Shown here: one piece after another, positions 7,829-64,000 of the stretch
Layout: the number at the start of each line of letters is the position of its first letter
Position numbering within the stretch: the stretch's first letter is position 1
DNA from: Candidatus Omnitrophota bacterium
Lineage (GTDB): Bacteria > Omnitrophota > Gorgyraeia > Zapsychrales > Fredricksoniimonadaceae
DNA length: 64,000 nucleotides
Direction of reading: 5' to 3'
NCBI GenBank assembly: GCA_016201795.1
Contig: JACQCF010000004.1
Span: 74,117-138,116, forward strand
Position numbers and translations under genes: made by a program
Notes under the pieces: model-generated
The model's input: only the letters and a program-made list of their open reading frames with translations
Database searches by the model: none
What the model was told of the DNA's origin: nothing

Positions 7829-9252
7829 AACTGCACAGTTTAACCGCTCATCAGATTCTGGATCTTTATAAGACTCAAAAGGCTTCCCCCCAGGAAGTTT
7901 TAAAAGATGTTTTATCTCGCATCGGGCTCATTGATTCCAGAGTTCATGCCTATGCCCGTTTAAGCAGTCAGAATGATTTAACTCAAGGGGTTTGTGCGAT
8001 TCCGATTGCCATTAAAGACAATATGTGCACTAAAGATGAGGAAATCACCTGCTCCTCGAGGATTTTAAAAGGTTTTCGTCCGCCTTATGACGCCGCTGTT
8101 GTTGAAAGAATCAAACAAAACGCAGGGATGATTGTCGGCTTTGCCAATATGGATGAATTTGCTTTCGGCTCATCCACCGAGACTTCCTGTTACGGAGCAA
8201 CTTATAATCCCTGGGATTTATCCCGCGTGCCTGGCGGCTCCAGCGGTGGCTCTGCGGCGGCGGTGGTGGCGGATGAGACACTGTGGGCTTTAGGTTCGGA
8301 TACTGGCGGCTCGATTCGCCAGCCGGCGTCCTTTTGTGGCATCGTCGGGCTTAAACCGACCTATGGCCGTGTGTCCCGTTACGGTTTGATTGCCTTTGCC
8401 TCCAGTTTGGATCAAATCGGGCCATTGACCAAAGATGTTAGAGATTGCGCCATGCTGATGAACATCATCGCCGGCTATGATGAGAGGGATTCCACTTCTG
8501 TGAATGAACCTGTGCCGGATTACACTAAAGCTTTAGTCCATGATGTACGTGGGATTAAAATCGGTGTGGTCAAAGAAGCTTTTGTCGAGGGGTTGGATGC
8601 CCAGGTGCGCACGGCGGTTGAAGGGGCAATTGATCAGTTAAAAAAATTAGGGGCGACGGTTAAAGAGATTTCCTTGCCGCATGCGCCTTATGCGGTGGCA
8701 ACCTACTATATTGTGGCGACCGCCGAGGCCAGTTCCAATTTGGCGCGTTTCGACGGTGTGCGTTACGGTCTTCGCCAGTCGCCGGCTAATATGCGCAAGA
8801 ACGGTTTGATGGACATGTACGAAGAAACTCGCGCCAAGGGTTTTGGCGATGAGGCCAAACGCCGCATAATGCTTGGCACCTACGTTTTATCGTCGGGTTA
8901 TTACGATGCCTATTATTTGCGCGGTCAAAAAGTCCGTACGCTTATCAAACAAGATTTGGATGAGGCTTTCAAAGAGTGCGACGTGATTCTAACGCCCACG
9001 GCCCCCACGACCGCGTTTAAAGTAGGGGAGAAAATTTCCGATCCTTTGAGCATGTATTTGTCGGATATTTATACGATTACGGCGAATTTAGCTGGGATTC
9101 CGGCGATATCCATTCCCTGCGGATTTTCCAAACAAGGGCTACCCGTCGGTTTGCAGCTGATGGCCAGGGCTTTTGATGAAGAAATGCTGCTTCGGGTTTC
9201 CTATACTTATGAGCAAAATACAGAGTGGCATTTGAAAAAGCCAAGTTTATAA
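7825..9252 (+). CDS. gatA: Glu-tRNA(Gln) amidotransferase subunit A (amidase signature family)
   Basis: Amidase signature [11 protein letters not shown] plus a Ser-cisSer-Lys triad context. 475 aa. Confidence 0.92.
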
Positions 9253-9333: not shown

Positions 9334-10773
9334 ATGAGTCAAGCATTCGAGACAGTCATCGGTTTGGAAGTGCATCTGCAGTTGTCCACCAAGACCAAAA
9401 TATTCTGCGGATGCGCCAATATGTTTGGGTCAGCACCTAACACCAATGTCTGCCCGGTATGTTTAGGACTGCCGGGGACTTTGCCGGTATTAAATCACCA
9501 GACGCTGTTGTACGCTATCAAAGTGGGGTTGGCCTTAAACGCGCACATCAACCCTTTTATTAAATTCGACCGCAAAAATTATTATTATCCGGATTTGCCT
9601 AAAGGCTATCAAATTTCTCAATACGATTTTCCCGTGGCTAAAGATGGTTTTGTGATGATCAAAACCGACAAAGGTCCCAAGCGCATCGGCATCAAACGCG
9701 CGCATCTGGAAGAGGATGCCGGCAAACTCATGCACGACAACACAGACAATTGTTCTTTGGTGGATTACAACCGCACCGGCACACCGCTGATTGAAATTGT
9801 CACCCAACCGGATTTGCGCTCTGCCGGGGAATCCTATGATTACCTTAATACACTCAAGTTGATGTTACAGTATTTAGGCGTTTCCGACTGTGACATGGAA
9901 AAGGGAAGTTTGCGTTGCGATGCCAATGTTTCCATTCGGCCAGCGGAATCGACGAGCTTTGGTACCAAAACCGAGCTTAAGAATATGAATTCTTTCCGTG
10001 CCGTTAAATCTGCGCTGGAATATGAAGTCGGGCGGCATAAGCAGGTTATTTTATCCGGCGGTAAAATCGTGCAGGAAACTCTGCTCTGGGATGACCAAAA
10101 AAGTGTGACCGTCGCCATGCGTTCCAAAGAACAGGCGCATGATTACCGTTATTTTCCCGACCCCGATCTAGTGCCGTTTACCGTTGATTATAAAGTGCTT
10201 GATCAGGTGCGTGCCGAATTGCCGGAGTTGCCCGGTGTTAAATTAGAGCGTTTTATTAAGCAATATGGTCTGAATGAATACGATGCGGGGGTTTTGGTCA
10301 TGGATCAGGCGGCGGCTAATTTTTTTGAAAGCTGCTGTGAGTCCTACAATCAGCCAAAAAAGATTGCCAATTGGCTTAACGGCGCTATGCTTAAAGAAAT
10401 GAATGAACGCAAAGTCGGTATCAGTGAGCTTGGCTTAACGTCGGTCAATTTGATTGAATTGATTAAATCCGTCGAAGATGGAGTCCTCAGCCATTTGGCG
10501 GGCAAAGAGGTTTTAACACTGATGCTTGATTCCGGCAAAAGTGCCGGGCAGATTATTCAACAACAAAGCCTGGCGCAAGTGTCTGATGATGCGGTGCTGA
10601 TGGCTATCGTGGACGAGATTATCCAGCAAAACCCGACGGCGGTAGAGCAGATTAAACAGGGTAAATTTGCGGCGGCGGGATTTTTGGTAGGCCAGGCCAT
10701 GAAAAAAAGTGGCGGCAAAGCCAATCCTAAAAAACTTAATGAACTTATCACAAGGAGGATTTCCCATGCCTAA
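9334..10773 (+). CDS. gatB: Asp-tRNA(Asn)/Glu-tRNA(Gln) amidotransferase subunit B
   Basis: …FETVIGLEVHLQLSTKTKIFCGC…CPVCLGLPGTLPVLN… is the GatB N-terminal Zn/cradle region. C-terminal YqeY-like tail. The track ORF begins at a TTG (9307) and there is an ATG at 9319, both inside the hairpin. The first ATG outside the stem is at 9334. Confidence 0.88.
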   Translation: MSQAFETVIGLEVHLQLSTKTKIFCGCANMFGSAPNTNVCPVCLGLPGTLPVLNHQTLLYAIKVGLALNAHINPFIKFDRKNYYYPDLPKGYQISQYDFPVAKDGFVMIKTDKGPKRIGIKRAHLEEDAGKLMHDNTDNCSLVDYNRTGTPLIEIVTQPDLRSAGESYDYLNTLKLMLQYLGVSDCDMEKGSLRCDANVSIRPAESTSFGTKTELKNMNSFRAVKSALEYEVGRHKQVILSGGKIVQETLLWDDQKSVTVAMRSKEQAHDYRYFPDPDLVPFTVDYKVLDQVRAELPELPGVKLERFIKQYGLNEYDAGVLVMDQAAANFFESCCESYNQPKKIANWLNGAMLKEMNERKVGISELGLTSVNLIELIKSVEDGVLSHLAGKEVLTLMLDSGKSAGQIIQQQSLAQVSDDAVLMAIVDEIIQQNPTAVEQIKQGKFAAAGFLVGQAMKKSGGKANPKKLNELITRRISHA

Positions 10774-56708: not shown

Positions 56709-57748
56709 AGAAATATTTTTATGAGCTTATGATGGACAAACGCCATGGCTTGATTGATAAAATCATTCAGGCGGTTTTATGGATTTTGTCGTTGGGCTAT
56801 TGTCTGATGGTTGCCCTTACGCGGCTGTTGTATCAAAAAGGCTTTTTGTCCGTCTATGAGAGCCCCCGACCGGTTGTTAGCATCGGCAATATTACCAGCG
56901 GAGGAGTTGGCAAAACACCTCTGGTTATTTGGCTGGCTAAAGTTTACCATGAAAGGCAAGTGAAGGTTGTTGTTTTGAGCCGCGGCTACGGTTCTGTTGA
57001 AGGCTTAAATGATGAAACCAAGATGTTCCAAGAACTATTACCGCAAGTGCCGATTGTCATCGGATCAAACAGAAAAGAAAGTATTCGAAAAATTTTTGAG
57101 AAATGGCCGGTGGATATTTTTCTGGCCGATGATGCCTTTCAGCATTGGCCTTTAAAGAGAGATTTGGATATTGTCACGGTGGATGCCGCCTATCCGTTCG
57201 GTAATGGTCATTTGTTGCCGCGGGGAATTTTACGCGAGAAGCCATCGGCCTTGGAGCGTGCGGATATTTTTGTATTAACCAAAACAGATAAAGTACAAAG
57301 TACTCAAGAGCTTTGTAATCAATTGCACCAGATTAATCCTGGGGCTTTAGTTGTCAAATCCCGTCATGTCCCTCGGCGTTTTCATAATTTTGAAGGACAT
57401 ACGACCAACCTTGAGATTCTTAAGGGTCAGAAAGTGTTGGCGTTTTGCGCTATTGGGGATCCCTCTTCGTTTGAACACACACTGCAACAATTAGGGCTTG
57501 TGGTATCCAAAGTTTTTACTTTTGTGGATCATCATCATTACAGCGAAGATGATCTTCAGAAAGTGGTCAACCATGCCAGAAAAGAAAATATCAAGATTAT
57601 TGTGACGACGCACAAAGATGACGTTAAAATAACACCTTTTAGAAATGTGTTTTACAAGGAAACTGTTCTAATTTTGGATATTGAATTAGAAATCACTCAA
57701 GGTCAAGATGAGCTCATTCAACGAGTCCTTTCTTTGCGGCGCCGTTAG
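56696..57748 (+). CDS. lpxK: Tetraacyldisaccharide 4'-kinase LpxK
   Basis: …VVSIGNITSGGVGKTPLVIWLA… P-loop. …VVLSRGYG…. Alternative start at 56705 (ATGA overlap with waaA). Confidence 0.88.
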   Translation: MVIMKKYFYELMMDKRHGLIDKIIQAVLWILSLGYCLMVALTRLLYQKGFLSVYESPRPVVSIGNITSGGVGKTPLVIWLAKVYHERQVKVVVLSRGYGSVEGLNDETKMFQELLPQVPIVIGSNRKESIRKIFEKWPVDIFLADDAFQHWPLKRDLDIVTVDAAYPFGNGHLLPRGILREKPSALERADIFVLTKTDKVQSTQELCNQLHQINPGALVVKSRHVPRRFHNFEGHTTNLEILKGQKVLAFCAIGDPSSFEHTLQQLGLVVSKVFTFVDHHHYSEDDLQKVVNHARKENIKIIVTTHKDDVKITPFRNVFYKETVLILDIELEITQGQDELIQRVLSLRRR

Positions 57749-59675
57749 ATTTTTAGGCGCTTGTTTCTGCCGACTGCCTTATTGCTTAAGCCGGGGCATG
57801 GCCCGCAGCATAGGGCTGGTGGGCTATTATCTGTTGGGTAAAAAAAGGGCTGTTGTCGAGGCTAATCTCAGGATAGCTTTATCCACCATCAAATCCCCGC
57901 AGGAAATTCGTCCTCTGGTTAAAAATGTTTTCCAAAATTTTGTCTGTAGCTTTGTGGATTTGCTTTGCGTACCTAAAATTAAAAGCCGAGGATTTGAGAA
58001 GTTCGTTACTTGCCAGGGGTGGGAAAATATCACTCAGGCTTTGTCTTTGGGCAGAGGATGTATCCTTTTAGCGGTTCATTCAGGAAGTTGGGAGTTGGCC
58101 AGTTTAGTCGGAAGCATGTGCGGCCACCCCTATAATGTTGTCGTTAATGATCAACCCAAAGCTTCCAAGCTTAATGAACTCCTTAATGAGTATCGACGTT
58201 TGGCGGGAGCAAAAGTGATTTATCCTGGTTCTGCCATCCGTGAGATTATGCGCGTTTTGAAGGACAATGAAATTGTCACTCTGGTGCTGGACCAGGGAGG
58301 TAAAGACGGTATTCCTGTAGAGTTTTTGGGTAAAACAGCCTCTATGTCAACAGGGGCCATTCGTTTAGGACTTAAATATCAAATACCAGTTTGTCCGGTA
58401 TGGATTGAGCGCCAATCAGAAGGCAGGCATGTGCTTAAATTTTTTTCTGCTTTGACGTTGCAGACGGGCAGTCCTATGGAAGAGGACGTAAGAGTCAATA
58501 CCCAAAAAGCTGTAAGGTTTTTTGAAAATTTTTTGCGTGAACACCCTGCGGAATATATGTGGTTTTACAAGGTCTACAAATACACCACCCAGGCCGATGT
58601 GCTGATTTTAGATGACGGTAAAACAGGACATTTACGTCAGTCCCAGGCCGTGGCAGAGGTGCTTAAGACAGCGTTGAATAGAGCGGGTAAACAAGTACGT
58701 CTTAAGACGGTGACGATTGAGTTTATTCATCCTTTGAATCAGAAAATATTTGTTGTTTATTGCCTCGCAGCTCAAATTCTTACCTTTTTAAGACAAGAAG
58801 AAATTCTGCGGTTTTTTCTCAAGCCGGATTGTTACAAAGCATTGATGGCCACCAGGGCTAATTATATTATTTCTTGCGGTTCTCAAACAGCGGGGATCAA
58901 TTTTATAATGGCACCTTTAGGAGGGGTTAAATCTATTCATATTTTAAAACCAGGGCTTTTGGATTGGAGTTGGTTTTCTTTGATTGTTTTGCCAGAGCAT
59001 GACAAGGCTCACAGCAAAAGCCACCCACGCCTGGTATTCACAAAAGTGGCTTTAAATTTGATTAGCCCTGATTATTTGAAACAACAGCAGGAAAAACTTT
59101 TGCTTCGTTATTCGCATTTGAAAACGAGTGTACGCTCCAAAATGGGTGTTTTATTGGGAGGCAACGCTAAAGGAGTTCTTTACAATGTGAATCAGTTGCG
59201 TTTGTTGATTCGTCAGCTCAAAGAAGCAGCGCAGCATTTTAATATGGACCTTCTGGTGACAACTTCCCGCCGCACACCGCCTCAAGTGGATGAAATGATC
59301 ATCAAAGAACTGCGCCGTTTCGAGCGATGTCCCTTTTTGGTGATCGCCAATGAAAGCAATGTTCCCGAAGCACTCGGCGGTATTTTAGCTTTGTCTGACC
59401 TTTTGATCGTCTCGGGGGAAAGTATTTCCATGGTTTCGGAGGCTATAGCGTCGGGCAAAAAGACTATCGTCTTTGCTCCCAATGGCACCTATGCGCCGCG
59501 GCCCTCCAATAAATATGACCGTTTTGTTTTAGAGTTAAACCAGCAGGGGTACTTGTTGGCCTCGTCGATTAAAGATATTTCTAACTCCATCAGCCAGGTG
59601 ATGCGTCAAAAAATTTCTCCTAAAACCATGGATGATCAGACCAACATTTTACAAGCCATCGAGGCTATTGTGTAA
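57708..59675 (+). CDS. Two-domain protein: N-terminal lipid A biosynthesis (Kdo)2-lipid IVA acyltransferase (LpxL/HtrB family) fused to a C-terminal ELM1/DUF1022-like domain
   Basis: N-terminal half has the Lip_A_acyltrans pattern with HSGSWE (H-x4-E/D catalytic dyad) and …IVTLVLDQGGKDGIPVEFLGKTASMSTGAIRLGL…. The C-terminal ~350 aa (…MGVLLGGNAKGVLYN…DLLVTTSRRTPPQ…IANESNVPE…LIVSGESISMVSEAIASGK…) resembles the ELM1/DUF1022 family often found in LPS loci. Confidence 0.65.
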   Translation: MSSFNESFLCGAVRFLGACFCRLPYCLSRGMARSIGLVGYYLLGKKRAVVEANLRIALSTIKSPQEIRPLVKNVFQNFVCSFVDLLCVPKIKSRGFEKFVTCQGWENITQALSLGRGCILLAVHSGSWELASLVGSMCGHPYNVVVNDQPKASKLNELLNEYRRLAGAKVIYPGSAIREIMRVLKDNEIVTLVLDQGGKDGIPVEFLGKTASMSTGAIRLGLKYQIPVCPVWIERQSEGRHVLKFFSALTLQTGSPMEEDVRVNTQKAVRFFENFLREHPAEYMWFYKVYKYTTQADVLILDDGKTGHLRQSQAVAEVLKTALNRAGKQVRLKTVTIEFIHPLNQKIFVVYCLAAQILTFLRQEEILRFFLKPDCYKALMATRANYIISCGSQTAGINFIMAPLGGVKSIHILKPGLLDWSWFSLIVLPEHDKAHSKSHPRLVFTKVALNLISPDYLKQQQEKLLLRYSHLKTSVRSKMGVLLGGNAKGVLYNVNQLRLLIRQLKEAAQHFNMDLLVTTSRRTPPQVDEMIIKELRRFERCPFLVIANESNVPEALGGILALSDLLIVSGESISMVSEAIASGKKTIVFAPNGTYAPRPSNKYDRFVLELNQQGYLLASSIKDISNSISQVMRQKISPKTMDDQTNILQAIEAIV

Positions 59676-59703
59676 TAGTAATTGTTTAGAAATTTTGATA
59701 CGG

Positions 59704-59800
59704 TTTCCCCTCCCTTGGTGGGAGGGGTTAGGGGAGGGGGATCAACGCAGATCATCGCTTTTATGCCCCCTCCCTTACCCTCCCCACAAGGGGGAGGGAA
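59704..59800 (+). repeat. G-rich inverted-repeat element, 'empty' copy: arm A (59704-59740) and arm B (59766-59800) separated by 25 nt
   Basis: A = TTTCCCCTCCCTTGGTGGGAGGGGTTAGGGGAGGGGG. B = CCCCCTCCCTTACCCTCCCCACAAGGGGGAGGGAA. B is approximately the reverse complement of A. Each arm contains an internal hairpin and four G-runs. Confidence 0.75.
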
Positions 59801-59820
59801 GACAATGAGAAATATTTATC

Positions 59821-61908
59821 ATGAATATCTTGCAAATTCTTCCAGAGCTTAATGTGGGCGGAGTGGAGACCGGCACGCTTGATCTGGCCCGGTATTTAAT
59901 TCATCAGGGGCATAAATCGGTGGTGGTCTCTGCCGGCGGAACTTTGGTGGCTGAACTGGAGAAAAACGGCTCCATTCACTATATCCTACCGGTGAATAAG
60001 AAAAATTTTTTTGTGATGTTTTCGGCGATCCATAAGCTCATGGGTATTATCCGCAGAGAAAAAGTCGATATTGTGCATGCGCGTTCCAGAGTCCCGGCTT
60101 GGGTGGCGTTTTTGGCCTGCCGTCGGACGCAGGCTGTTTTTATGACCAGCTGCCATGGCTATTACAGCCGACATTTCTTCAGTCGCGTGATGGGCTGGGG
60201 TAAATTGGTGATCGCCATCAGTGAAGTGATCGGCCAGTACATGGTGCAGGATTTTGGTGTACCTTCGCGTTATGTGCGTATTATTCCCCGCAGTGTGGAT
60301 ACGTCCAAATTTAATCTTGCGCGTGGGACCAAAGGGCCTGGGGATCCTTTTCTCATCACTATGATCGGCCGTCTGACACCGCTGAAAGGCCATCCGTTTT
60401 TCCTCAAAGCCATGGCGCAGGTTCTAAGGTCCTTGCCCAATGTCAAAATCCAAATCATCGGCGATGCGTCCCCTAAGCGTCCCAGATATAAAGAGGAGTT
60501 GGTGCTGTTAACCAAACGTTTAGGGATCACTCATCATGTGGAGTTTATGGGCAATCGCCGGGACATTCCTCAGTTATTGGCCGCCTCGGACTGTTTGGTT
60601 TTATCCACTATCACTCCAGAGGCCTTTGGCCGGGTGATTTTGGAAGCTCAGGCCGCCGGTGTGCCGGTGGTGGCCACCAAAGTCGGAGGAGTATCAGAAA
60701 TCATTGATCATGAAAAAACCGGTCTTTTAGTATTACCCAATAATATCGAAGCGATGGCACAGGCGGTGTTGCGTATTCTCAAAGACCGCGCTTTCGCGGC
60801 CAGCCTGGTAGTCGAGGCCCAAAAAAAGATCGAACAGCATTATACGTTAAAGCATATGGCTGAGGCGACGCTGCACGTTTATCATGAAGCCGTGAGCTCG
60901 CTTAACATTCTGGTGATTAAATTGACGGCGCTAGGAGACGTGGTTTTAGCAACCGCCTCTTTAAAAGCGCTGCGTCAGAAATTTCCCACGGCCCAGATTC
61001 ATGTGCTCACCTCACCGCAGGCCAGCTTAATCGTGCAGCGTTGTCCTTATGTGAATGGCGTCATTGTTTTTGACCCATCCCATAAAGACCCGCTTTCGAT
61101 TTGGCGGATGAGTCAGATGCTGCGTCAATATCGTCTTGATAAAGTCATTGATTTGCAAAATAATCGGCTCAGCCATCTTTTGAGCTTCTTAAGTCTTGCC
61201 AAACAAACTTACGGTTATCATAACGGTAAATTCGGATTTCTTTTAAGTCATTCGATCAAAAATAACATACTGTCTATGGCGCCGGTGGAGCATCAGTTTC
61301 GTGTGCTTAAACTTTTGGGGATCGACTATAATCCGCCGGTGTCCTTAGAACTTTGGCCCTCCGCTAAAGATTACGAATATGCTCAAAGTCTTTTGGACAG
61401 CGAATGGATGGGCCATTATAAAGATATGGTGGGATTAAATATTTCGGCGTCCCGGCGATGGGCAACGAAGAATTGGCTAACGGAGCACATGGTCAAGTTA
61501 TGTGATCTTTTAGGTGCTCATAATATTCGGGTGATCCTAACCGGACAAGCCAAAGATCAAAATCTGGCCCGTCTGCTGGTGTCGAAATCGAAGTCCAAAC
61601 CCGCCAACTTCACGGGCAAAACCAACATTTTACAATTGGCTGCTTTGATTAGCCGATGCCGGGTGTACATTTCCCCTGATTCGGCCCCGCTGCATGTAGC
61701 CTCGGCCATGCAGGTACCGGTGGTTGCTTTTTTTGGTCCTACGGATCCTGTACGGCATATGCCGCCGGTGACCAAAGCAGCGGTTTTGCGGCGGGACCTT
61801 AAATGTTCGCCGTGTTATGCGGGGGTTTGCAAAATTAAAACACACGCGTGTATGAAAGAAATCACCCCAGAGTACGTTGCTCAAAAAGTGATGGAACTGA
61901 TGCGATGA
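59821..61908 (+). CDS. Bifunctional glycosyltransferase: N-terminal GT4 (RfaG/WaaG-like) fused to a C-terminal GT9 ADP-heptose:LPS heptosyltransferase domain
   Basis: N-terminal MNILQILPELNVGGVETGTLDLARYL…E-x7-E-type GT4 motifs (…FGRVILEAQAAGVPVVATKVGG…). C-terminal LNILVIKLTALGDVVLATASLKAL… and …PDSAPLHVASAMQVPVVAFFGPTDP… are typical of RfaF/RfaC heptosyltransferases. Confidence 0.8.
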   Translation: MNILQILPELNVGGVETGTLDLARYLIHQGHKSVVVSAGGTLVAELEKNGSIHYILPVNKKNFFVMFSAIHKLMGIIRREKVDIVHARSRVPAWVAFLACRRTQAVFMTSCHGYYSRHFFSRVMGWGKLVIAISEVIGQYMVQDFGVPSRYVRIIPRSVDTSKFNLARGTKGPGDPFLITMIGRLTPLKGHPFFLKAMAQVLRSLPNVKIQIIGDASPKRPRYKEELVLLTKRLGITHHVEFMGNRRDIPQLLAASDCLVLSTITPEAFGRVILEAQAAGVPVVATKVGGVSEIIDHEKTGLLVLPNNIEAMAQAVLRILKDRAFAASLVVEAQKKIEQHYTLKHMAEATLHVYHEAVSSLNILVIKLTALGDVVLATASLKALRQKFPTAQIHVLTSPQASLIVQRCPYVNGVIVFDPSHKDPLSIWRMSQMLRQYRLDKVIDLQNNRLSHLLSFLSLAKQTYGYHNGKFGFLLSHSIKNNILSMAPVEHQFRVLKLLGIDYNPPVSLELWPSAKDYEYAQSLLDSEWMGHYKDMVGLNISASRRWATKNWLTEHMVKLCDLLGAHNIRVILTGQAKDQNLARLLVSKSKSKPANFTGKTNILQLAALISRCRVYISPDSAPLHVASAMQVPVVAFFGPTDPVRHMPPVTKAAVLRRDLKCSPCYAGVCKIKTHACMKEITPEYVAQKVMELMR

Positions 61909-63023
61909 ATATTTTATTTTTGACCACTCATCTAAATACGGGGGGCATTACCAGTTATCTTTTGAGCTTGAGCCGCGGTTTGCAAGCGCAAGGTCATCAG
62001 GTGTTTGTGGCCAGCGCCGGCGGGGATTGTGAAAATATTTTCAAAAATGATGGCGGCAGGCATTTCAATTTGGGTTTTCGCACCAAATCCGAAATTGACC
62101 CAAGAATTTATTTGAGTTTGGGGCCTTTAAAAAAATTTGTCTATAAAGAAAATATTAATATTATCCACGCCCAAACCAGAGTCACGCAGGTGATGGGATA
62201 TTTTTTGGCACGCATGAGCCACAAACCTCTGGTGACAACCTGCCACGGCTTTTTTAAACCGCGGTTTTTCCGTCGGATTTTTTCCTGCTGGGGCCAGGCG
62301 GTGATTGCGATTAGTAAACCCGTTAAGGAACATTTAGTGAGAGATTTTGGCCTCGATCCTAAAAAAGTTCATTGGATTGCCAACGGCATTGACTGCTCCA
62401 AGTTTGTTTTGGCCACCGAGGCTTTAAAACAACAGACACGTCAAAGGTGGAATATTCAGGCTAAATTCGTGATTGGCCTCATTGCCCGATTTTCAGATGT
62501 GAAGGGCATTGATGTTTTGATTAAGAGTATGCCTTTAGTCATTCAACAATATCCGGACGTGCTTTTCATGGTTGTCGGCCAGGGGCCCGAACAAGAGAAA
62601 TTGTTTAATCTGGCGGAAGGTTTAAATTTAAAAACTCACGTGCGTTTTGAGAACATTGTCAATCAAACGGCAGATATTTTACCGGCTTTTGATCTATTCG
62701 TGATGCCTTCACGTCAGGAAGGCCTGGGATTGTCGGTGATGGAAGCTCAGTCCTGTGGACTGCCGGTGATCGCCTCTGGCGTTGGCGGTCTGGTGGATTT
62801 GATTGAAGACGGCAAAACAGGATATTTGGTGTCAGCGGGCGACAGCAAGGCTTTGGCTGCTAAAATCAACGAGGTCTTGCGAAATCCTTTGCAGGCTAGA
62901 GAGGTTGGTCTGGCTGCCAGAGAATATATCGCCCGGAATTTTTCTCTGGAAAAAATGGTGTCCGCTACCGAAAAAATTTATGAACGTAATTGTGGTTTCC
63001 CCTCCCCTTGTGGGAGGGGTTAG
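61905..63023 (+). CDS. GT4 family glycosyltransferase (LPS core / RfaG-like)
   Basis: MNILFLTTHLNTGGITSYLLSL…; …LSVMEAQSCGLPVIASGVGG…. ATGA overlap with the preceding gene. The last 10 codons (…CGFPSPCGRG*) are encoded by repeat arm A2. Confidence 0.8.
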   Translation: MNILFLTTHLNTGGITSYLLSLSRGLQAQGHQVFVASAGGDCENIFKNDGGRHFNLGFRTKSEIDPRIYLSLGPLKKFVYKENINIIHAQTRVTQVMGYFLARMSHKPLVTTCHGFFKPRFFRRIFSCWGQAVIAISKPVKEHLVRDFGLDPKKVHWIANGIDCSKFVLATEALKQQTRQRWNIQAKFVIGLIARFSDVKGIDVLIKSMPLVIQQYPDVLFMVVGQGPEQEKLFNLAEGLNLKTHVRFENIVNQTADILPAFDLFVMPSRQEGLGLSVMEAQSCGLPVIASGVGGLVDLIEDGKTGYLVSAGDSKALAAKINEVLRNPLQAREVGLAAREYIARNFSLEKMVSATEKIYERNCGFPSPCGRG

Positions 63024-63398
63024 GGGAGGGGGTAAATTGAAGAAAGCATTAACGCTCAGAGCAAAAGAATTGAGAAATAATTCCACTGAAGCTGAAAAAT
63101 ATCTCTGGTATGTCCTTCGACTTGAAAACCTGGGGGTTAAGTTTCGTAGGCAAACCGTTATTGGTCGATATATTGTAGATTTTGTATGTTTTGAAAGGAA
63201 ATTGGTGGTTGAGCTTGACGGTGGACAACATGCTCAGAGTCAGCATGATCATGTACGGGACCAATGGCTTAAGGGGCAGGGGTTTGAGGTTTTAAGGTTT
63301 TGGAACCATGATGTACTTGGGAATCGGGAGGAAGTTTTACAAAAGATAGTTGATTGTTTGACTCCCCCTCCCTTACCCTCCCCACAGGGGGGAGGGAA
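62996..63398 (+). mobile_element. Second copy of the G-rich inverted-repeat element, here carrying a DUF559 endonuclease-like gene between arm A2 (62996-63032) and arm B2 (63364-63398)
   Basis: A2 = TTTCCCCTCCCCTTGTGGGAGGGGTTAGGGGAGGGGG and B2 = CCCCCTCCCTTACCCTCCCCACAGGGGGGAGGGAA. Each is ~95% identical to A1/B1. The internal segment is ~330 nt here versus 25 nt in the empty copy. Confidence 0.6.
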
Positions 63399-63438
63399 TA
63401 CATGTTATCAAAACCCACAGGGGGATGGAATCCAATGA
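63037..63438 (+). CDS. DUF559 domain protein (Vsr/very-short-patch-repair endonuclease-like fold), cargo of the repeat-flanked element
   Basis: …KKALTLRAKELRNNSTEAEKYLWYVLRLENLGVKFRRQTVIGRYIVDFVCFERKLVVELDGGQHAQSQHDHVRDQWLKGQGFEVLRFWNHDV… matches the DUF559/YcjD pattern (LRk..T.aE..LW..LR…kFrRQ…yivDF…kLvvElDG..H…D..R…L…G..VlRF.N.dv). Probable TTG start at 63037 right after arm A2. The C-terminal tail …TPPPLPSPQGGGN is encoded by arm B2. Confidence 0.65.
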   Translation: MKKALTLRAKELRNNSTEAEKYLWYVLRLENLGVKFRRQTVIGRYIVDFVCFERKLVVELDGGQHAQSQHDHVRDQWLKGQGFEVLRFWNHDVLGNREEVLQKIVDCLTPPPLPSPQGGGNTCYQNPQGDGIQ

Positions 63439-63461
63439 TAAAGAACGCTAAATAAATACCT

Positions 63462-64000
63462 ATGAACAATATTCTGGTTGTTAATGTCAATTGGCTGGGG
63501 GATGCGGTTTTTTCCACGCCTGTTTTTGGTGCGCTCAAAGATAATTTCCCTAAGGCGCGCGTGAGCTGTTTGTGCGTCCCCAGGGTTCAAGAGGTGTTGA
63601 AATTCTGCCCTTTTATTGATGAGCTCATTGTTTACGACGAAAAAGGCTCCCATCAATGGCCCTTAGCCAAATGGTTTTTGAGTAGTGATTTGCGCCGCCG
63701 TTCGTTTGACGCGGCCTTTTTACTACATCGCTCCACGACCCGCGCGCTTTTGGTTTATCTGGCCGGTATTCCTATCAGGGTTGGTTATTCCAAAGCCAAA
63801 AATCTTTTGACGCATCCGGTGGATTTTAATGATGAAGGTATTCATCGCTCTGACCTTTATTTAGAAGCGCTGGAATCTTACGGTTTAAAAATCAACAATA
63901 GGACCTGCCGGTTGAATTTGAATCTCGAGGATGCCAAAAGGTTAGATCAACTTTTGCAGGGCAAAGGCATAGACCCTCAGGAAAAATTTATGGTGCTTCA
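63462..64000 (+). CDS. ADP-heptose:LPS heptosyltransferase (GT9, RfaF/RfaC/RfaQ family), 3'-truncated by the window end
   Basis: MNNILVVNVNWLGDAVFSTPVFGALKDNFPKARVSCLCVP… is the hallmark GT9 N-terminus. It runs to the end of the window without a stop. Confidence 0.75.
   Translation, partial: MNNILVVNVNWLGDAVFSTPVFGALKDNFPKARVSCLCVPRVQEVLKFCPFIDELIVYDEKGSHQWPLAKWFLSSDLRRRSFDAAFLLHRSTTRALLVYLAGIPIRVGYSKAKNLLTHPVDFNDEGIHRSDLYLEALESYGLKINNRTCRLNLNLEDAKRLDQLLQGKGIDPQEKFMVL

What the first reader, a model, noticed from the sequence alone, without database searches (positions are those of the whole stretch)
62996..63438. DUF559 (Vsr-like endonuclease) gene carried between G-rich terminal inverted repeats, inserted in the LPS core locus
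- Arms A2 (62996-63032) and B2 (63364-63398) are ~95% identical to A1/B1 at 59704-59800, where they are only 25 nt apart.
- Here they flank ~330 nt encoding a DUF559 protein, with a TTG start immediately after A2 and a Pro/Gly tail encoded by B2.
- B is roughly the reverse complement of A, so the two arms behave like terminal inverted repeats.
- An empty versus filled site with the same TIRs is the signature of a small non-autonomous mobile element or a homing-endonuclease-like cassette.
- The element has rewritten the C-terminus of the upstream GT4 gene (…CGFPSPCGRG* comes from arm A2).
- It lies inside an LPS glycosyltransferase cluster, a region where strain-level variation matters for phage and host interactions.
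Basis: seen in the sequence. Interest (0 to 1): 0.8.

Follow-up and report, generated by a model that had tools for sequence, protein, structure and literature searches.

The report
Nuclease gene nested in triplex repeats
A small nuclease gene, flanked by two inverted copies of a known but unexplained bacterial DNA repeat, has inserted into a cell-envelope sugar gene cluster, and the same gene-plus-repeat unit recurs across many bacterial phyla, which points to the enzyme that may spread these repeats.

Summary
The DUF559 gene (63037-63438; Pfam E=2.9e-40) lies between two G-rich inverted arms. A gene-less pair of the same arms sits at 59706-59799.

Two related metagenome contigs lack the insert. 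There the GT4 stop overlaps the GT9 start. The window therefore carries a ~475-bp insertion (62986-63460) with a 7-8-bp duplication (TATGAAC) and a rewritten GT4 C-terminus.

The arms belong to a described class: BoxC / PIT / TM_ECO 'intrastrand triplex' motifs, a hairpin plus a mirror-image purine third strand. Their function and means of spread were unknown.

What appears new is the link to the gene. 76 of 80 relatives of this DUF559 gene, from about ten phyla, have such a motif within 200 nt. 66 of 77 have significant flanking inverted repeats. Arm sequence co-varies with the protein. Control loci contain no motifs. E. coli ycjD also lies next to a BoxC copy, and in a sample of E. coli genomes those with ycjD hold several times more copies, although this is confounded by phylogeny.

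Best reading: a REPIN/RAYT-like partnership between a Vsr-fold nuclease and triplex-hairpin repeats, which here moved as one unit. The nuclease's action on the arms is inferred, not shown.

The parts
62986..63460 (+). Whole inserted element (~475 bp): left outer segment, arm A2, DUF559 gene, arm B2, right outer segment
   Evidence: Absent from orthologous junctions in L083 and L084. Bounded by the TATGAAC duplication.
62979..62985 (+). Left copy of the duplicated target TATGAAC. Its ATG is in frame with the DUF559 ORF and is the start NCBI annotated (P0001).
   Evidence: Alignment A2; sequence; P0001 sequence
63461..63467 (+). Right copy of the duplicated target TATGAAC (possibly 8 nt, CTATGAAC). 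It supplies ATG AAC, the start of the downstream GT9 gene.
   Evidence: Alignment A2; empty sites have a single copy
62998..63031 (+). Arm A2: class-II triplex-hairpin motif on the + strand, CCCCTCCC-CTTGT-GGGAGGGG-TTA-GGGGAGGG. Its last block contains GGAGG about 7 nt before the TTG start.
   Evidence: Strict motif scan
63037..63438 (+). DUF559 PD-(D/E)XK (Vsr-fold) nuclease ORF, 133 aa from the TTG start. Residues 1-108 are the domain; the tail is encoded by arm B2 and the right outer segment.
   Evidence: Pfam. Invariant D48, E59, D61, H65. AF2 model pLDDT 80. Foldseek hits 3HRL, then I-Bth0305I.
63364..63397 (-). Arm B2: the same class-II motif, but on the - strand
   Evidence: Strict motif scan
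63411..63431 (+). Degenerate partial copy of the 3' half of arm B2 (ACCCACAGGGGGATGGAATC), inside the right outer segment
   Evidence: Read from the sequence; not tested statistically
59676..59820 (+). Gene-less pair of arms with its outer segments (145 nt). It is absent from L084, where the acyltransferase stop overlaps the next ATG.
   Evidence: The strand folds to -65.8 kcal/mol, z=-5.5.
59706..59739 (+). Arm A1 (class-II motif, + strand)
59766..59799 (-). Arm B1 (class-II motif, - strand)
61848..63023 (+). GT4 glycosyltransferase whose last ~11 codons now come from the insert (...ERNCGFPSPCGRG*)
63462..64000 (+). Start of the downstream GT9-type gene (runs off the window). Its start codon was preserved by the duplication.

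Best explanation
The feature is a compact insertion element. It consists of a ~110-residue DUF559 (Vsr-fold PD-(D/E)XK) nuclease gene nested between two inverted copies of a BoxC/PIT/TM-type motif. Each motif has a pyrimidine block, a loop, the complementary purine block, a spacer, and a purine block that mirrors the second. This is a hairpin that can take a third strand on its G-rich side.

Shown: the unit inserted at the overlapping GT4-stop/GT9-start junction and duplicated 7-8 bp. A gene-less pair of the same arms lies 3.2 kb away and is also an insertion. The gene-plus-arms architecture is conserved across many phyla. Arm sequences change together with the protein.

Inferred: the nuclease is made by read-through from the host operon, because it usually sits in sense orientation behind a co-directional gene. 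It recognises the folded G-rich strand of an arm when the DNA is transiently single-stranded and nicks there. The two inverted arms give symmetric nicks on opposite strands. This lets the unit be excised or copied and, in trans, the far more numerous gene-less arm pairs too. This would be a REPIN/RAYT-like partnership that uses a different enzyme fold and a different DNA structure.
For: Insertion: two empty orthologous sites and a TATGAAC duplication.

Architecture: 66 of 77 relatives have flanking inverted repeats scoring above the 99th percentile of random-position controls. 76 of 80 have a strict class-II motif within 200 nt of the gene. A further 92 motifs lie in 659 kb of flanks. There are none in 487 kb of control loci and none in shuffles.

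Mirror rule: among arms with asymmetric blocks, the third block was a mirror image in 26, a direct copy in 1, and tied in 5. It often has T where A is expected, which a reverse-Hoogsteen strand tolerates.

The arms are more conserved than the coding sequence. Omnitrophota genes are 59-78% identical at the nucleotide level, with only L010/L011/L012 at 81-88%, yet their arms are nearly identical.

Protein distance and arm distance correlate (Mantel r=0.33, 0 of 2000 permutations). One odd arm type is shared by a Desulfobacteraceae locus and a Dehalococcoidia locus.

The gene is syntenic and vertically inherited in Erythrobacteraceae, Gallionellales, Halothiobacillus and others, as RAYTs are.

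The nuclease site is intact and invariant. The nearest solved folds are 3HRL and then the homing endonuclease I-Bth0305I.

E. coli: ycjD lies 167 nt from BoxC/TM copy #9. In an evenly spaced sample of 59 chromosomes, the 37 with ycjD have 12-31 matching places and the 22 without have 1-15. This agrees with published per-strain counts and with the reported distribution of ycjD across phylogroups.

The E. coli motif forms a triplex in vitro (PMC4666352).
Against: There is no biochemical evidence that any DUF559 protein binds or cuts these arms.

PD-(D/E)XK nucleases hydrolyse DNA and are not known to carry out strand transfer. A target duplication would therefore need host repair or another enzyme.

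The E. coli correlation follows phylogroup. The ycjD-positive rows with a divergent ycjD allele (about 96% identity) have only 12-15 places, similar to ycjD-negative genomes of the O157 type. Shared ancestry alone could explain the correlation.

In vivo DMS footprinting in E. coli did not detect a stable triplex.

The duplication is documented at only one site. The junction of the gene-less pair could not be resolved.

I saw only 64 kb of this genome, so copy numbers in this organism are unknown.
Confidence: 0.5

Rival explanations
1. The gene is a homing endonuclease that parasitises pre-existing arm pairs. The gene-less pairs spread by some other means. The DUF559 enzyme cuts an empty pair, and repair from a filled copy uses the two arms as homology and copies the gene in.
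For: The gene sits exactly in the centre of an arm pair. The second-closest solved fold is the homing endonuclease I-Bth0305I (E=3.6e-5). The arms of the filled and the gene-less copy are 89-95% identical. The outer duplication could belong to an earlier insertion of the pair alone.
Against: A gene-less pair remains unfilled 3.2 kb from the gene in this window. E. coli MG1655 keeps five inverted pairs unfilled with one ycjD. Paralogues within one MAG are 67-81% identical rather than near-identical, so there is no sign of recent copying. The spacers of gene-less pairs share no conserved target sequence.
Confidence: 0.2
2. The nuclease has a cellular role, such as repair or defence, that is unrelated to the repeats. 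The arms are cis elements that bracket and dampen expression of a toxic gene, for example by ribosome-site occlusion or transcript-end structure. The unit moves only passively, through host recombination or another element's transposase.
For: GGAGG in the third block lies about 7 nt before the start codon, and arm B carries the complementary CCTCC. The gene is co-oriented with its upstream neighbour in 61 of 76 loci. A DUF559 protein acts in a Vsr-like repair role in Caulobacter (PMC12907096). The locus is syntenic over long periods in several lineages.
Against: Gene-less arm pairs keep the same architecture with no gene to regulate. The mirror rule applies to the G-rich strand of each arm: the top strand at A and the bottom strand at B. 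This is a DNA-level symmetry, and purine-motif triplexes do not form in RNA. PIT elements showed no promoter or terminator activity in E. coli. No cytosine methyltransferase is adjacent here. The Vsr model scores 17.8 bits against a cut-off of 97.85.
Confidence: 0.2
3. The arms form an invertible switch: recombination between them flips the gene relative to the operon.
For: 'DUF559 domain-containing protein' was 14-fold enriched among predicted programmed-inversion targets in a survey based on inverted repeats (PMC9881135).
Against: No recombinase gene is part of the unit. In Omnitrophota, arm A and the reverse complement of arm B differ in a fixed way (CCCCTCCCC versus CCCTCCCCC) at every locus, which frequent inversion would scramble. 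Sense orientation is strongly preferred. The enrichment follows trivially from the flanking repeats overlapping the coding sequence.
Confidence: 0.04
4. The pattern is a chance resemblance or an assembly artefact.
For: The window is from a MAG, and G-rich palindromes can cause mis-assembly.
Against: The same architecture appears at 76 of 80 independent loci, including isolate and complete genomes, with none in controls or shuffles. The ORF is intact and conserved. The junctions are clean against two independent contigs.
Confidence: 0.01

Closest known systems
BoxC / PIT (potential intrastrand triplex) / TM_ECO repeats (Hoyne et al. 2000, 2002; Holder et al. 2015, PMC4666352)
   Same: Same three-block design: pyrimidine block, 3-6 nt loop, complementary purine block, ~3 nt spacer, mirror purine block. 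The motifs occur singly or as closely spaced inverted pairs, lie between genes, and mark hypervariable loci. All four window motifs pass a strict class-II scan.
   Different: The block sequence here is CCCCTCCC, not the E. coli consensus CCCTCNCCC. The host is Omnitrophota, not Proteobacteria or Cyanobacteria. The published work reported no associated gene and no link to mobile elements. Here a nuclease gene sits inside the pair, and the unit is seen as an insertion.
REPIN / RAYT systems (REP doublets with a REP-associated tyrosine transposase)
   Same: A nuclease gene is flanked by inverted copies of a short structured repeat that also occurs as many gene-less doublets. The gene is often single-copy and syntenic. 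Repeat sequence co-varies with the protein.
   Different: The enzyme is a PD-(D/E)XK Vsr-fold nuclease, not an HUH/Y1 transposase. The repeat is a hairpin plus a mirror third strand, not a simple hairpin with a GTAG or CGTC tag. Here the gene-plus-arms unit itself has moved and left a duplication.
E. coli YcjD and N. gonorrhoeae NGO0050 (PDB 3HRL), small stand-alone DUF559 proteins
   Same: 46% identity to YcjD. 3HRL is the top match by sequence (E=1.7e-25) and by fold (TM 0.86 on the target). The invariant residues are the same. ycjD also lies beside BoxC copy #9 and ends in an arm-derived ...SPSP tail.
   Different: The score is below NCBI's YcjD equivalog cut-off (90 versus 218 bits). The E. 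coli arms next to the gene are degenerate. Neither protein has a demonstrated activity.
I-Bth0305I (EDxHD family homing endonuclease, PDB 3R3P)
   Same: The catalytic-domain fold matches (Foldseek E=3.6e-5, TM 0.72-0.74 on the target). Both are selfish-element-associated nucleases of the Vsr fold.
   Different: I-Bth0305I is a multi-domain enzyme encoded in a phage group I intron. The window protein is the bare ~110-residue domain, no intron is detected, and sequence identity is only 22-23%.
Vsr very-short-patch repair endonuclease
   Same: Same PD-(D/E)XK variant fold (1CW0 at E=0.018).
   Different: The TIGR00632 score is 17.8 bits against a cut-off of 97.85. No dcm-type methyltransferase is nearby. 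Genomic context varies between loci.
Insertion sequences and MITEs
   Same: Terminal inverted repeats, a short target duplication, coding and non-coding versions in one genome, and insertion between genes.
   Different: No DDE, HUH, serine or tyrosine transposase is encoded. The spacers of gene-less pairs show no detectable remnant of the gene, so derivation by internal deletion is not supported.

Membership tests
DUF559 (Pfam PF04480) | Profile match above the gathering score | tested here: met
   137 bits against a cut-off of 20.6, E=2.9e-40, covering profile positions 3-108 of 109
DUF559 (Pfam PF04480) | Conserved acidic and histidine residues of the Vsr-type PD-(D/E)XK site, and the matching fold | tested here: met
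   D48, E59, D61 and H65 are invariant in 28 sequences. AF2 core pLDDT is above 90. 3HRL is the top Foldseek hit.
Vsr endonuclease (NCBIfam TIGR00632) | Profile match above the curated cut-off | tested here: not met
   17.8 bits against 97.85
Vsr endonuclease (NCBIfam TIGR00632) | Partnership with an adjacent cytosine-5 methyltransferase | tested here: not met
   The neighbours are glycosyltransferases. Flanking genes differ among loci.
Vsr endonuclease (NCBIfam TIGR00632) | Nicking 5' of T in a T:G mismatch | not testable with these tools
   Needs an enzyme assay
BoxC / PIT / TM class-II intrastrand triplex motif | Pyrimidine block, 3-8 nt loop, complementary purine block, 1-6 nt spacer, and a purine block that mirrors the second (A/T interchange allowed) | tested here: met
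   Four motifs in the window and none elsewhere in it. Family-wide, the third block was mirror in 26 arms and direct in 1.
BoxC / PIT / TM class-II intrastrand triplex motif | Match to the published TM_ECO consensus CCCTCNCCC-N3-6-GGGNGAGGG-N3-GGGNGAGGG | tested here: not met
   The window blocks are CCCCTCCC / GGGAGGGG / GGGGAGGG. They are a sequence variant of the class, not TM_ECO itself (consensus).
BoxC / PIT / TM class-II intrastrand triplex motif | Occurrence as closely spaced inverted pairs on opposite strands | tested here: met
   A1/B1 are 25 nt apart. E. coli has five such pairs.
BoxC / PIT / TM class-II intrastrand triplex motif | Actual triplex formation by the single strand | not testable with these tools
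   Shown by CD and NMR for the E. coli sequence only, and not seen in vivo
REPIN / RAYT | Gene flanked by inverted copies of a repeat that is also dispersed as gene-less doublets | tested here: met
REPIN / RAYT | The gene encodes an HUH / Y1 (IS200-like) transposase | tested here: not met
   Pfam finds only DUF559 and MTES_1575
REPIN / RAYT | Conserved GTAG or CGTC tetranucleotide at the foot of the hairpin | tested here: not met
   The arms begin TTTCCCC... and no such tag appears in the alignment of arms
Insertion sequence / MITE | Terminal inverted repeats plus a target-site duplication | tested here: met
   Arms are 71-80% complementary. TATGAAC is duplicated relative to two empty sites. 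This is a single documented site.
Insertion sequence / MITE | Encodes, or derives by deletion from an element that encodes, a recognised transposase | tested here: not met
   No transposase domain. The spacers of gene-less pairs are no more similar to the gene ends than shuffles are.
Homing endonuclease (EDxHD, I-Bth0305I type) | Catalytic-domain fold | tested here: met
   3R3P at E=3.6e-5, TM 0.72-0.74 on the target
Homing endonuclease (EDxHD, I-Bth0305I type) | Residence in a self-splicing intron or intein, or cleavage of the gene-less allele | tested here: inconclusive
   No intron family was found by Rfam. Cleavage of empty sites cannot be tested here.

The most novel reading that the evidence does not exclude
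The small stand-alone DUF559 nucleases, including E. coli YcjD, are the missing enzymes that create and maintain BoxC/PIT/TM triplex-hairpin repeats. This would be a second class of repeat-plus-nuclease replicator, mechanistically unrelated to REPIN/RAYT, present in at least ten bacterial phyla. Its enzyme would recognise a three-stranded fold of single-stranded DNA. The same unit would occasionally move as an autonomous ~0.45-kb element, making it one of the smallest protein-coding mobile elements known.
Probability: 0.35. Interest if true: 0.9.

Novelty: new variant of a known kind. Interest (0 to 1): 0.8.

Why it matters
BoxC/PIT/TM repeats have been catalogued since the 1990s in E. coli and hundreds of other genomes. 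They mark hypervariable loci, yet they have no known function, no known means of spread and no known partner protein.

DUF559 is a very large protein family. It includes the uncharacterised E. coli gene ycjD and has no assigned role.

A physical and evolutionary link between the two supplies a concrete hypothesis for both, and it can be tested directly in E. coli K-12 with a ycjD deletion and synthetic arm DNA. If confirmed, it would add a new enzyme fold and a non-B DNA structure to the ways bacterial genomes are populated by short repeats.

For this organism, the insertion splits a translationally overlapped glycosyltransferase pair and changes the C-terminus of one enzyme in the LPS-core cluster. 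That may alter surface structure between closely related strains.

Tried and rejected
**Rfam.** A permissive search of 59500-64000 gave only sub-threshold microRNA-hairpin matches to the long palindrome, so no known RNA family applies.

**Gene-less pairs as internal-deletion derivatives.** An nhmmer profile of 81 genes against masked loci found only one extra gene fragment (L066 7085-7160). The best local matches of eight spacers to gene ends were no better than to gene middles or to shuffles. The apparent similarities I had noted by eye are therefore not supported.

**Third block as a direct repeat giving an alternative hairpin.** Rejected: mirror 26, direct 1.

**G-quadruplex as the conserved property.** It fits the Omnitrophota and proteobacterial blocks. 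It does not fit lineages with G-tracts of 5,2,2,5, which allow only two tetrads, and it does not predict mirror symmetry.

**Clustering of gene-less motifs near the gene (local hopping).** Motif density shows no decay over 0.2-6 kb.

**Target duplication of the gene-less pair at 59.7 kb.** Only a 67%-identical relative covers that junction, so the boundaries stay unresolved.

**Phage carriage.** One relative was found in 2.9 million viral contigs, and it also has arms. The unit is not typically phage-borne.

**Defence-system membership.** PADLOC gave only marginal hits to DUF559-like domains of large proteins.

**Own promoter or terminator in the arms.** None was found by consensus scan.

**Integron cassette (attC).** Considered and set aside from reading the sequence. 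The two arms are inverted halves around the gene, not direct attC sites, and GTTRRRY cores are absent. An integrase search was not done.

**Extending the contig.** Looking up the NCBI protein P0001 found nothing on record.

Full report
**1. The observation.** The arm pattern occurs at exactly two places in the 64 kb, 59707-59740 and 62999-63032. None of 100 shuffles gave a match. A1 and A2 are 95% identical, B1 and B2 are 89% identical over 46 nt, and A is 71-80% reverse-complementary to B. At 59.7 kb the arms are 25 nt apart, and that strand folds into a long hairpin (-65.8 kcal/mol, z=-5.5). At 63 kb they enclose an ORF (TTG 63037 to 63438) that matches Pfam DUF559 at E=2.9e-40. The surrounding genes are a lipid A acyltransferase fusion, a GT4-GT9 fusion, a GT4 and a GT9-type gene. 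The closest database protein (99% identical) is from a Candidatus Omnitrophica MAG.

**2. It is an insertion.** A metagenome scan with the GT4 protein returned L083 (85% identical) and L084 (67%). In both, the GT4 stop overlaps the start of the next gene...AAAATCTATGAACAATATTC.... The window has ...AAATTTATGAAC, then 475 nt, then TATGAACAATATTC... (alignment A2). The insert is therefore 62986-63460, flanked by a 7-nt duplication. The duplication may be 8 nt (CTATGAAC) with one substitution in the left copy. The native GT4 ends ...KIYEQYSRR* or ...KVYEKYISR*. The window protein ends ...KIYERNCGFPSPCGRG*. The right copy of the duplication preserves ATG AAC for the downstream gene. The left copy supplies an ATG in frame with the DUF559 ORF, and this is the start NCBI annotated. 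One insertion is more parsimonious than two precise deletions in lineages of 85% and 67% identity. L084 also lacks the gene-less arm pair. There the acyltransferase stop overlaps the next ATG (ATTGTTTAATGAATATT), whereas the window has 145 extra nucleotides (59676-59820). I could not define a duplication for that second insertion with a relative this distant.

**3. The architecture is general.** A scan of one genome per species returned 80 loci encoding relatives at 52-74% identity. They come from Omnitrophota, CPR groups, Alpha-, Beta-, Gamma- and Deltaproteobacteria, Chloroflexota, Deinococcales, Elusimicrobia, Nitrospirota, Acidobacteriota, Spirochaetota and others. In 66 of 77 loci with both flanks available, the upstream and downstream 130 nt form an inverted repeat that scores above the 99th percentile of random-position controls. 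The upstream arm ends a few nucleotides before the start codon. The downstream arm overlaps the 3' end of the ORF. This explains why homologues end in PLPSPQGGG, SLTLPTRGRE or PLPNPPHKGEG: these are the same DNA read in three frames. The repeated block differs between lineages (CCCCTCCC, CCCTCTCCC, CCTTCCCCCC, CCTCCCCC), but it changes in both arms together. Among Omnitrophota loci the genes are mostly 59-78% identical at the nucleotide level, with only L010, L011 and L012 at 81-88%, while the arms are almost invariant. Protein distance and arm distance are correlated (Mantel r=0.33, 0 of 2000 permutations). One unusual arm type is shared by a Desulfobacteraceae locus and a Dehalococcoidia locus whose proteins cluster together. 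This indicates transfer of the whole unit between phyla.

**4. What the arms are.** Each arm has three blocks: a pyrimidine block, its complement after a short loop, and a further purine block. Among arms whose blocks are asymmetric, the third block is the mirror image of the second in 26 cases, a direct copy in 1, and tied in 5. The interrupting base in the third block is often T where the second block has A. Neither terminal-inverted-repeat pairing nor an alternative hairpin explains a mirror relationship. It is the signature of an intrastrand purine-motif triplex. This led to the literature. The motif is the BoxC repeat of E. coli. It was re-described as PIT elements (Hoyne et al. 2000, 2002) and as TM_ECO by Holder et al. 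2015 (PMC4666352). Its consensus is CCCTCNCCC-N3-6-GGGNGAGGG-N3-GGGNGAGGG. E. coli MG1655 has 23 copies, including five inverted pairs, and 262 proteobacterial genomes hold 3610 copies. The single strand forms a triplex in vitro by CD and NMR. There was no in vivo footprint, no promoter or terminator activity, no pattern in flanking genes, and 'no association with transposons, phages or plasmids'. Loci that contain the motif are hypervariable. A strict scan for this design finds exactly four motifs in the window: the + strand at A1 and A2, and the - strand at B1 and B2. It finds at least one motif within 200 nt of the gene in 76 of 80 DUF559 loci, 92 more in 659 kb of their flanks, and none in 487 kb of control loci or in shuffles. 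Density in the flanks does not fall off with distance from the gene. Gene-less pairs have the same layout as A1/B1. One MAG locus holds three near-identical ~130-nt copies.

**5. The protein.** D48, E59, D61, H65 and fifteen other residues are invariant across 28 diverse sequences. The AlphaFold model is confident over residues 10-110 and disordered in the arm-encoded tail. The nearest solved structures are N. gonorrhoeae NGO0050 (3HRL), then the catalytic domain of the homing endonuclease I-Bth0305I (3R3P, E=3.6e-5). Vsr itself is far weaker (E=0.018). The protein fails NCBI's Vsr model and its YcjD equivalog model. It has no meaningful defence-system match.

**6. How the unit sits in genomes.** The upstream neighbour is co-oriented in 61 of 76 loci and the downstream neighbour in 46 of 66. 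In L163 the unit fills the gap between two operon genes, leaving 8 and 3 nt. No promoter or terminator consensus lies in the window arms. The unit therefore looks like a promoterless cassette that relies on host transcription. In several lineages the flanking genes are syntenic, so the unit has been inherited vertically at a fixed site for long periods. These lineages are Erythrobacteraceae/Sphingomonadales, Gallionellales/Nitrosomonadales, Halothiobacillus, Dehalococcoidia and Deinococcales. Omnitrophota loci share no flanks, and single MAGs carry two diverged copies.

**7. The E. coli cross-check.** YcjD is 46% identical to the window protein. Its ORF ends in a degenerate arm (...SPSP*). A partial duplicate of its 3' end follows, and BoxC/TM copy #9 lies 167 nt away. 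With 23 copies in 4.6 Mb, I estimate that chance proximity has a probability well below 1%. Holder et al. listed ycjD as a flanking gene but drew no connection. Their per-strain counts are 18-30 in strains I recognise as phylogroups A, B1 and C. They are 10-15 in D and E, 6-7 in F, and 1-2 in B2. The phylogroup assignments are from my own knowledge. A 2026 study reports ycjD in A, B1 and C plus ST69 and ST182, replaced elsewhere by eefRABCD (PMC12817139). I queried 5,426 complete E. coli genomes with ycjD joined to one BoxC pair and took an evenly spaced sample down the ranking. The 37 chromosomes with ycjD have 12-31 matching places. The 22 without it have 1-15. This is what a RAYT-like dependence predicts. 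However, it follows the species tree. The ycjD-positive rows with a divergent allele have only 12-15 places. The correlation is therefore suggestive and not decisive.

**8. Mechanism.**
- **Shown:** the anatomy, the insertion, the conservation of the gene-arm unit, the co-variation, the mirror rule and the intact active site.
- **Inferred:** the nuclease recognises and nicks the folded G-rich strand of each arm, and this drives copying or movement of the unit and of gene-less pairs.
- **Homing rival:** homing into pre-existing pairs fits the fold match and the central position of the gene. It fits poorly with unfilled pairs persisting beside the gene and with diverged paralogues.
- **Regulatory rival:** a purely regulatory role for the arms fits the GGAGG/CCTCC arrangement. 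It does not explain gene-less pairs, the DNA-level two-fold symmetry, or the fact that purine-motif triplexes do not form in RNA.

**9. Novelty and limits.** I searched the held literature for DUF559, YcjD, COG2852, Vsr-like with inverted repeats, REPIN/RAYT, intrastrand triplex and BoxC. No paper linked DUF559 to these repeats. One survey lists DUF559 proteins as enriched among predicted inversion targets, which is probably a by-product of these flanking repeats. Subscription-only papers were not searchable, so prior description cannot be excluded. The statements apply to the subfamily of small stand-alone DUF559 proteins close to this one, not to all DUF559 domains.

Noticed in passing
window 57708-59675 and 59821-61908: There are two fusion genes in the LPS cluster. 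One joins a lipid A acyltransferase domain to an ELM1-like domain (655 aa). The other joins GT4 to a GT9 heptosyltransferase (695 aa). Both fusions are conserved in L084.
   Followed up: partly
L082 (E. coli MG1655 1351100-1352300), about 190-330 on the ycjD sense strand: Downstream of ycjD there is a partial duplicate of the gene's last ~50 nt with a degenerate arm, followed by intact BoxC/TM copy #9. Upstream of ycjD is an unrelated perfect palindrome, TCACCTCATTCTGACAA...TTGTCAGAATGAGGTGA.
   Followed up: partly
L020, L029, L032, L069 (Gallionellales / Nitrosomonadales), downstream of the DUF559 match: The DUF559 reading frame runs through arm B into an ~85-residue conserved sequence (...LLERVRWRARRGLLELDIVLGRFIE...). 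From memory this looks like an SdhE/YgfY-type protein. The unit appears to sit directly in front of that gene in all four loci.
   Followed up: no
L001 255-385 (reverse), 8650-8780, 9613-9743: Three near-identical ~130-nt elements lie within 12 kb. Each is an arm pair with a 16-nt spacer and has its own outer inverted repeat, GTAACAAAAGTT. The arm sequence differs slightly from that of the arms around the DUF559 gene in the same locus.
   Followed up: partly
L026, L050, L059, L073, L077, L055, L033, L043, L167: In Sphingomonadales and some other Alphaproteobacteria, the spacer between the second and third blocks of arm A is replaced by an extra GC-rich hairpin (for example GGGGCCCGCCGCGCAGCGGTGGG). 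The one viral-contig relative has the same arrangement.
   Followed up: no
L163 9990-10440 (same element as L002): This copy has no start codon after arm A. The only in-frame start is an ATG upstream of the arm, so the arm is translated (MVVNKFPSPCGRGKGRGR...). The left and right flanks both carry a ribosome-site-plus-ATATG sequence. This may be a duplication of the downstream gene's start region, as in the window.
   Followed up: partly
L078, downstream of arm B; L049, downstream of arm B: Arm B is followed by tandem arrays that continue the DUF559 reading frame. In L078 the repeating unit is HQGSKEKRE(Y/C)(S/F); in L049 it is (A/P)SKGGEEE(E).
   Followed up: no
L034 800-2470 and 8600-8870; L048 7530-7900: The Halothiobacillus loci hold clusters of a different hairpin repeat (TTCCCCCTTTTTCAAAGGGGGAA and relatives) alongside the triplex-type motifs.
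   Followed up: no
window 59741-59748 and L168 (E. coli 164581-164595): The spacer of the window's gene-less pair begins ATCAACGC. The spacer of E. coli BoxC pair #1/#2 begins ATCAGCGC, at the same position directly after the third block. This may be chance.
   Followed up: no
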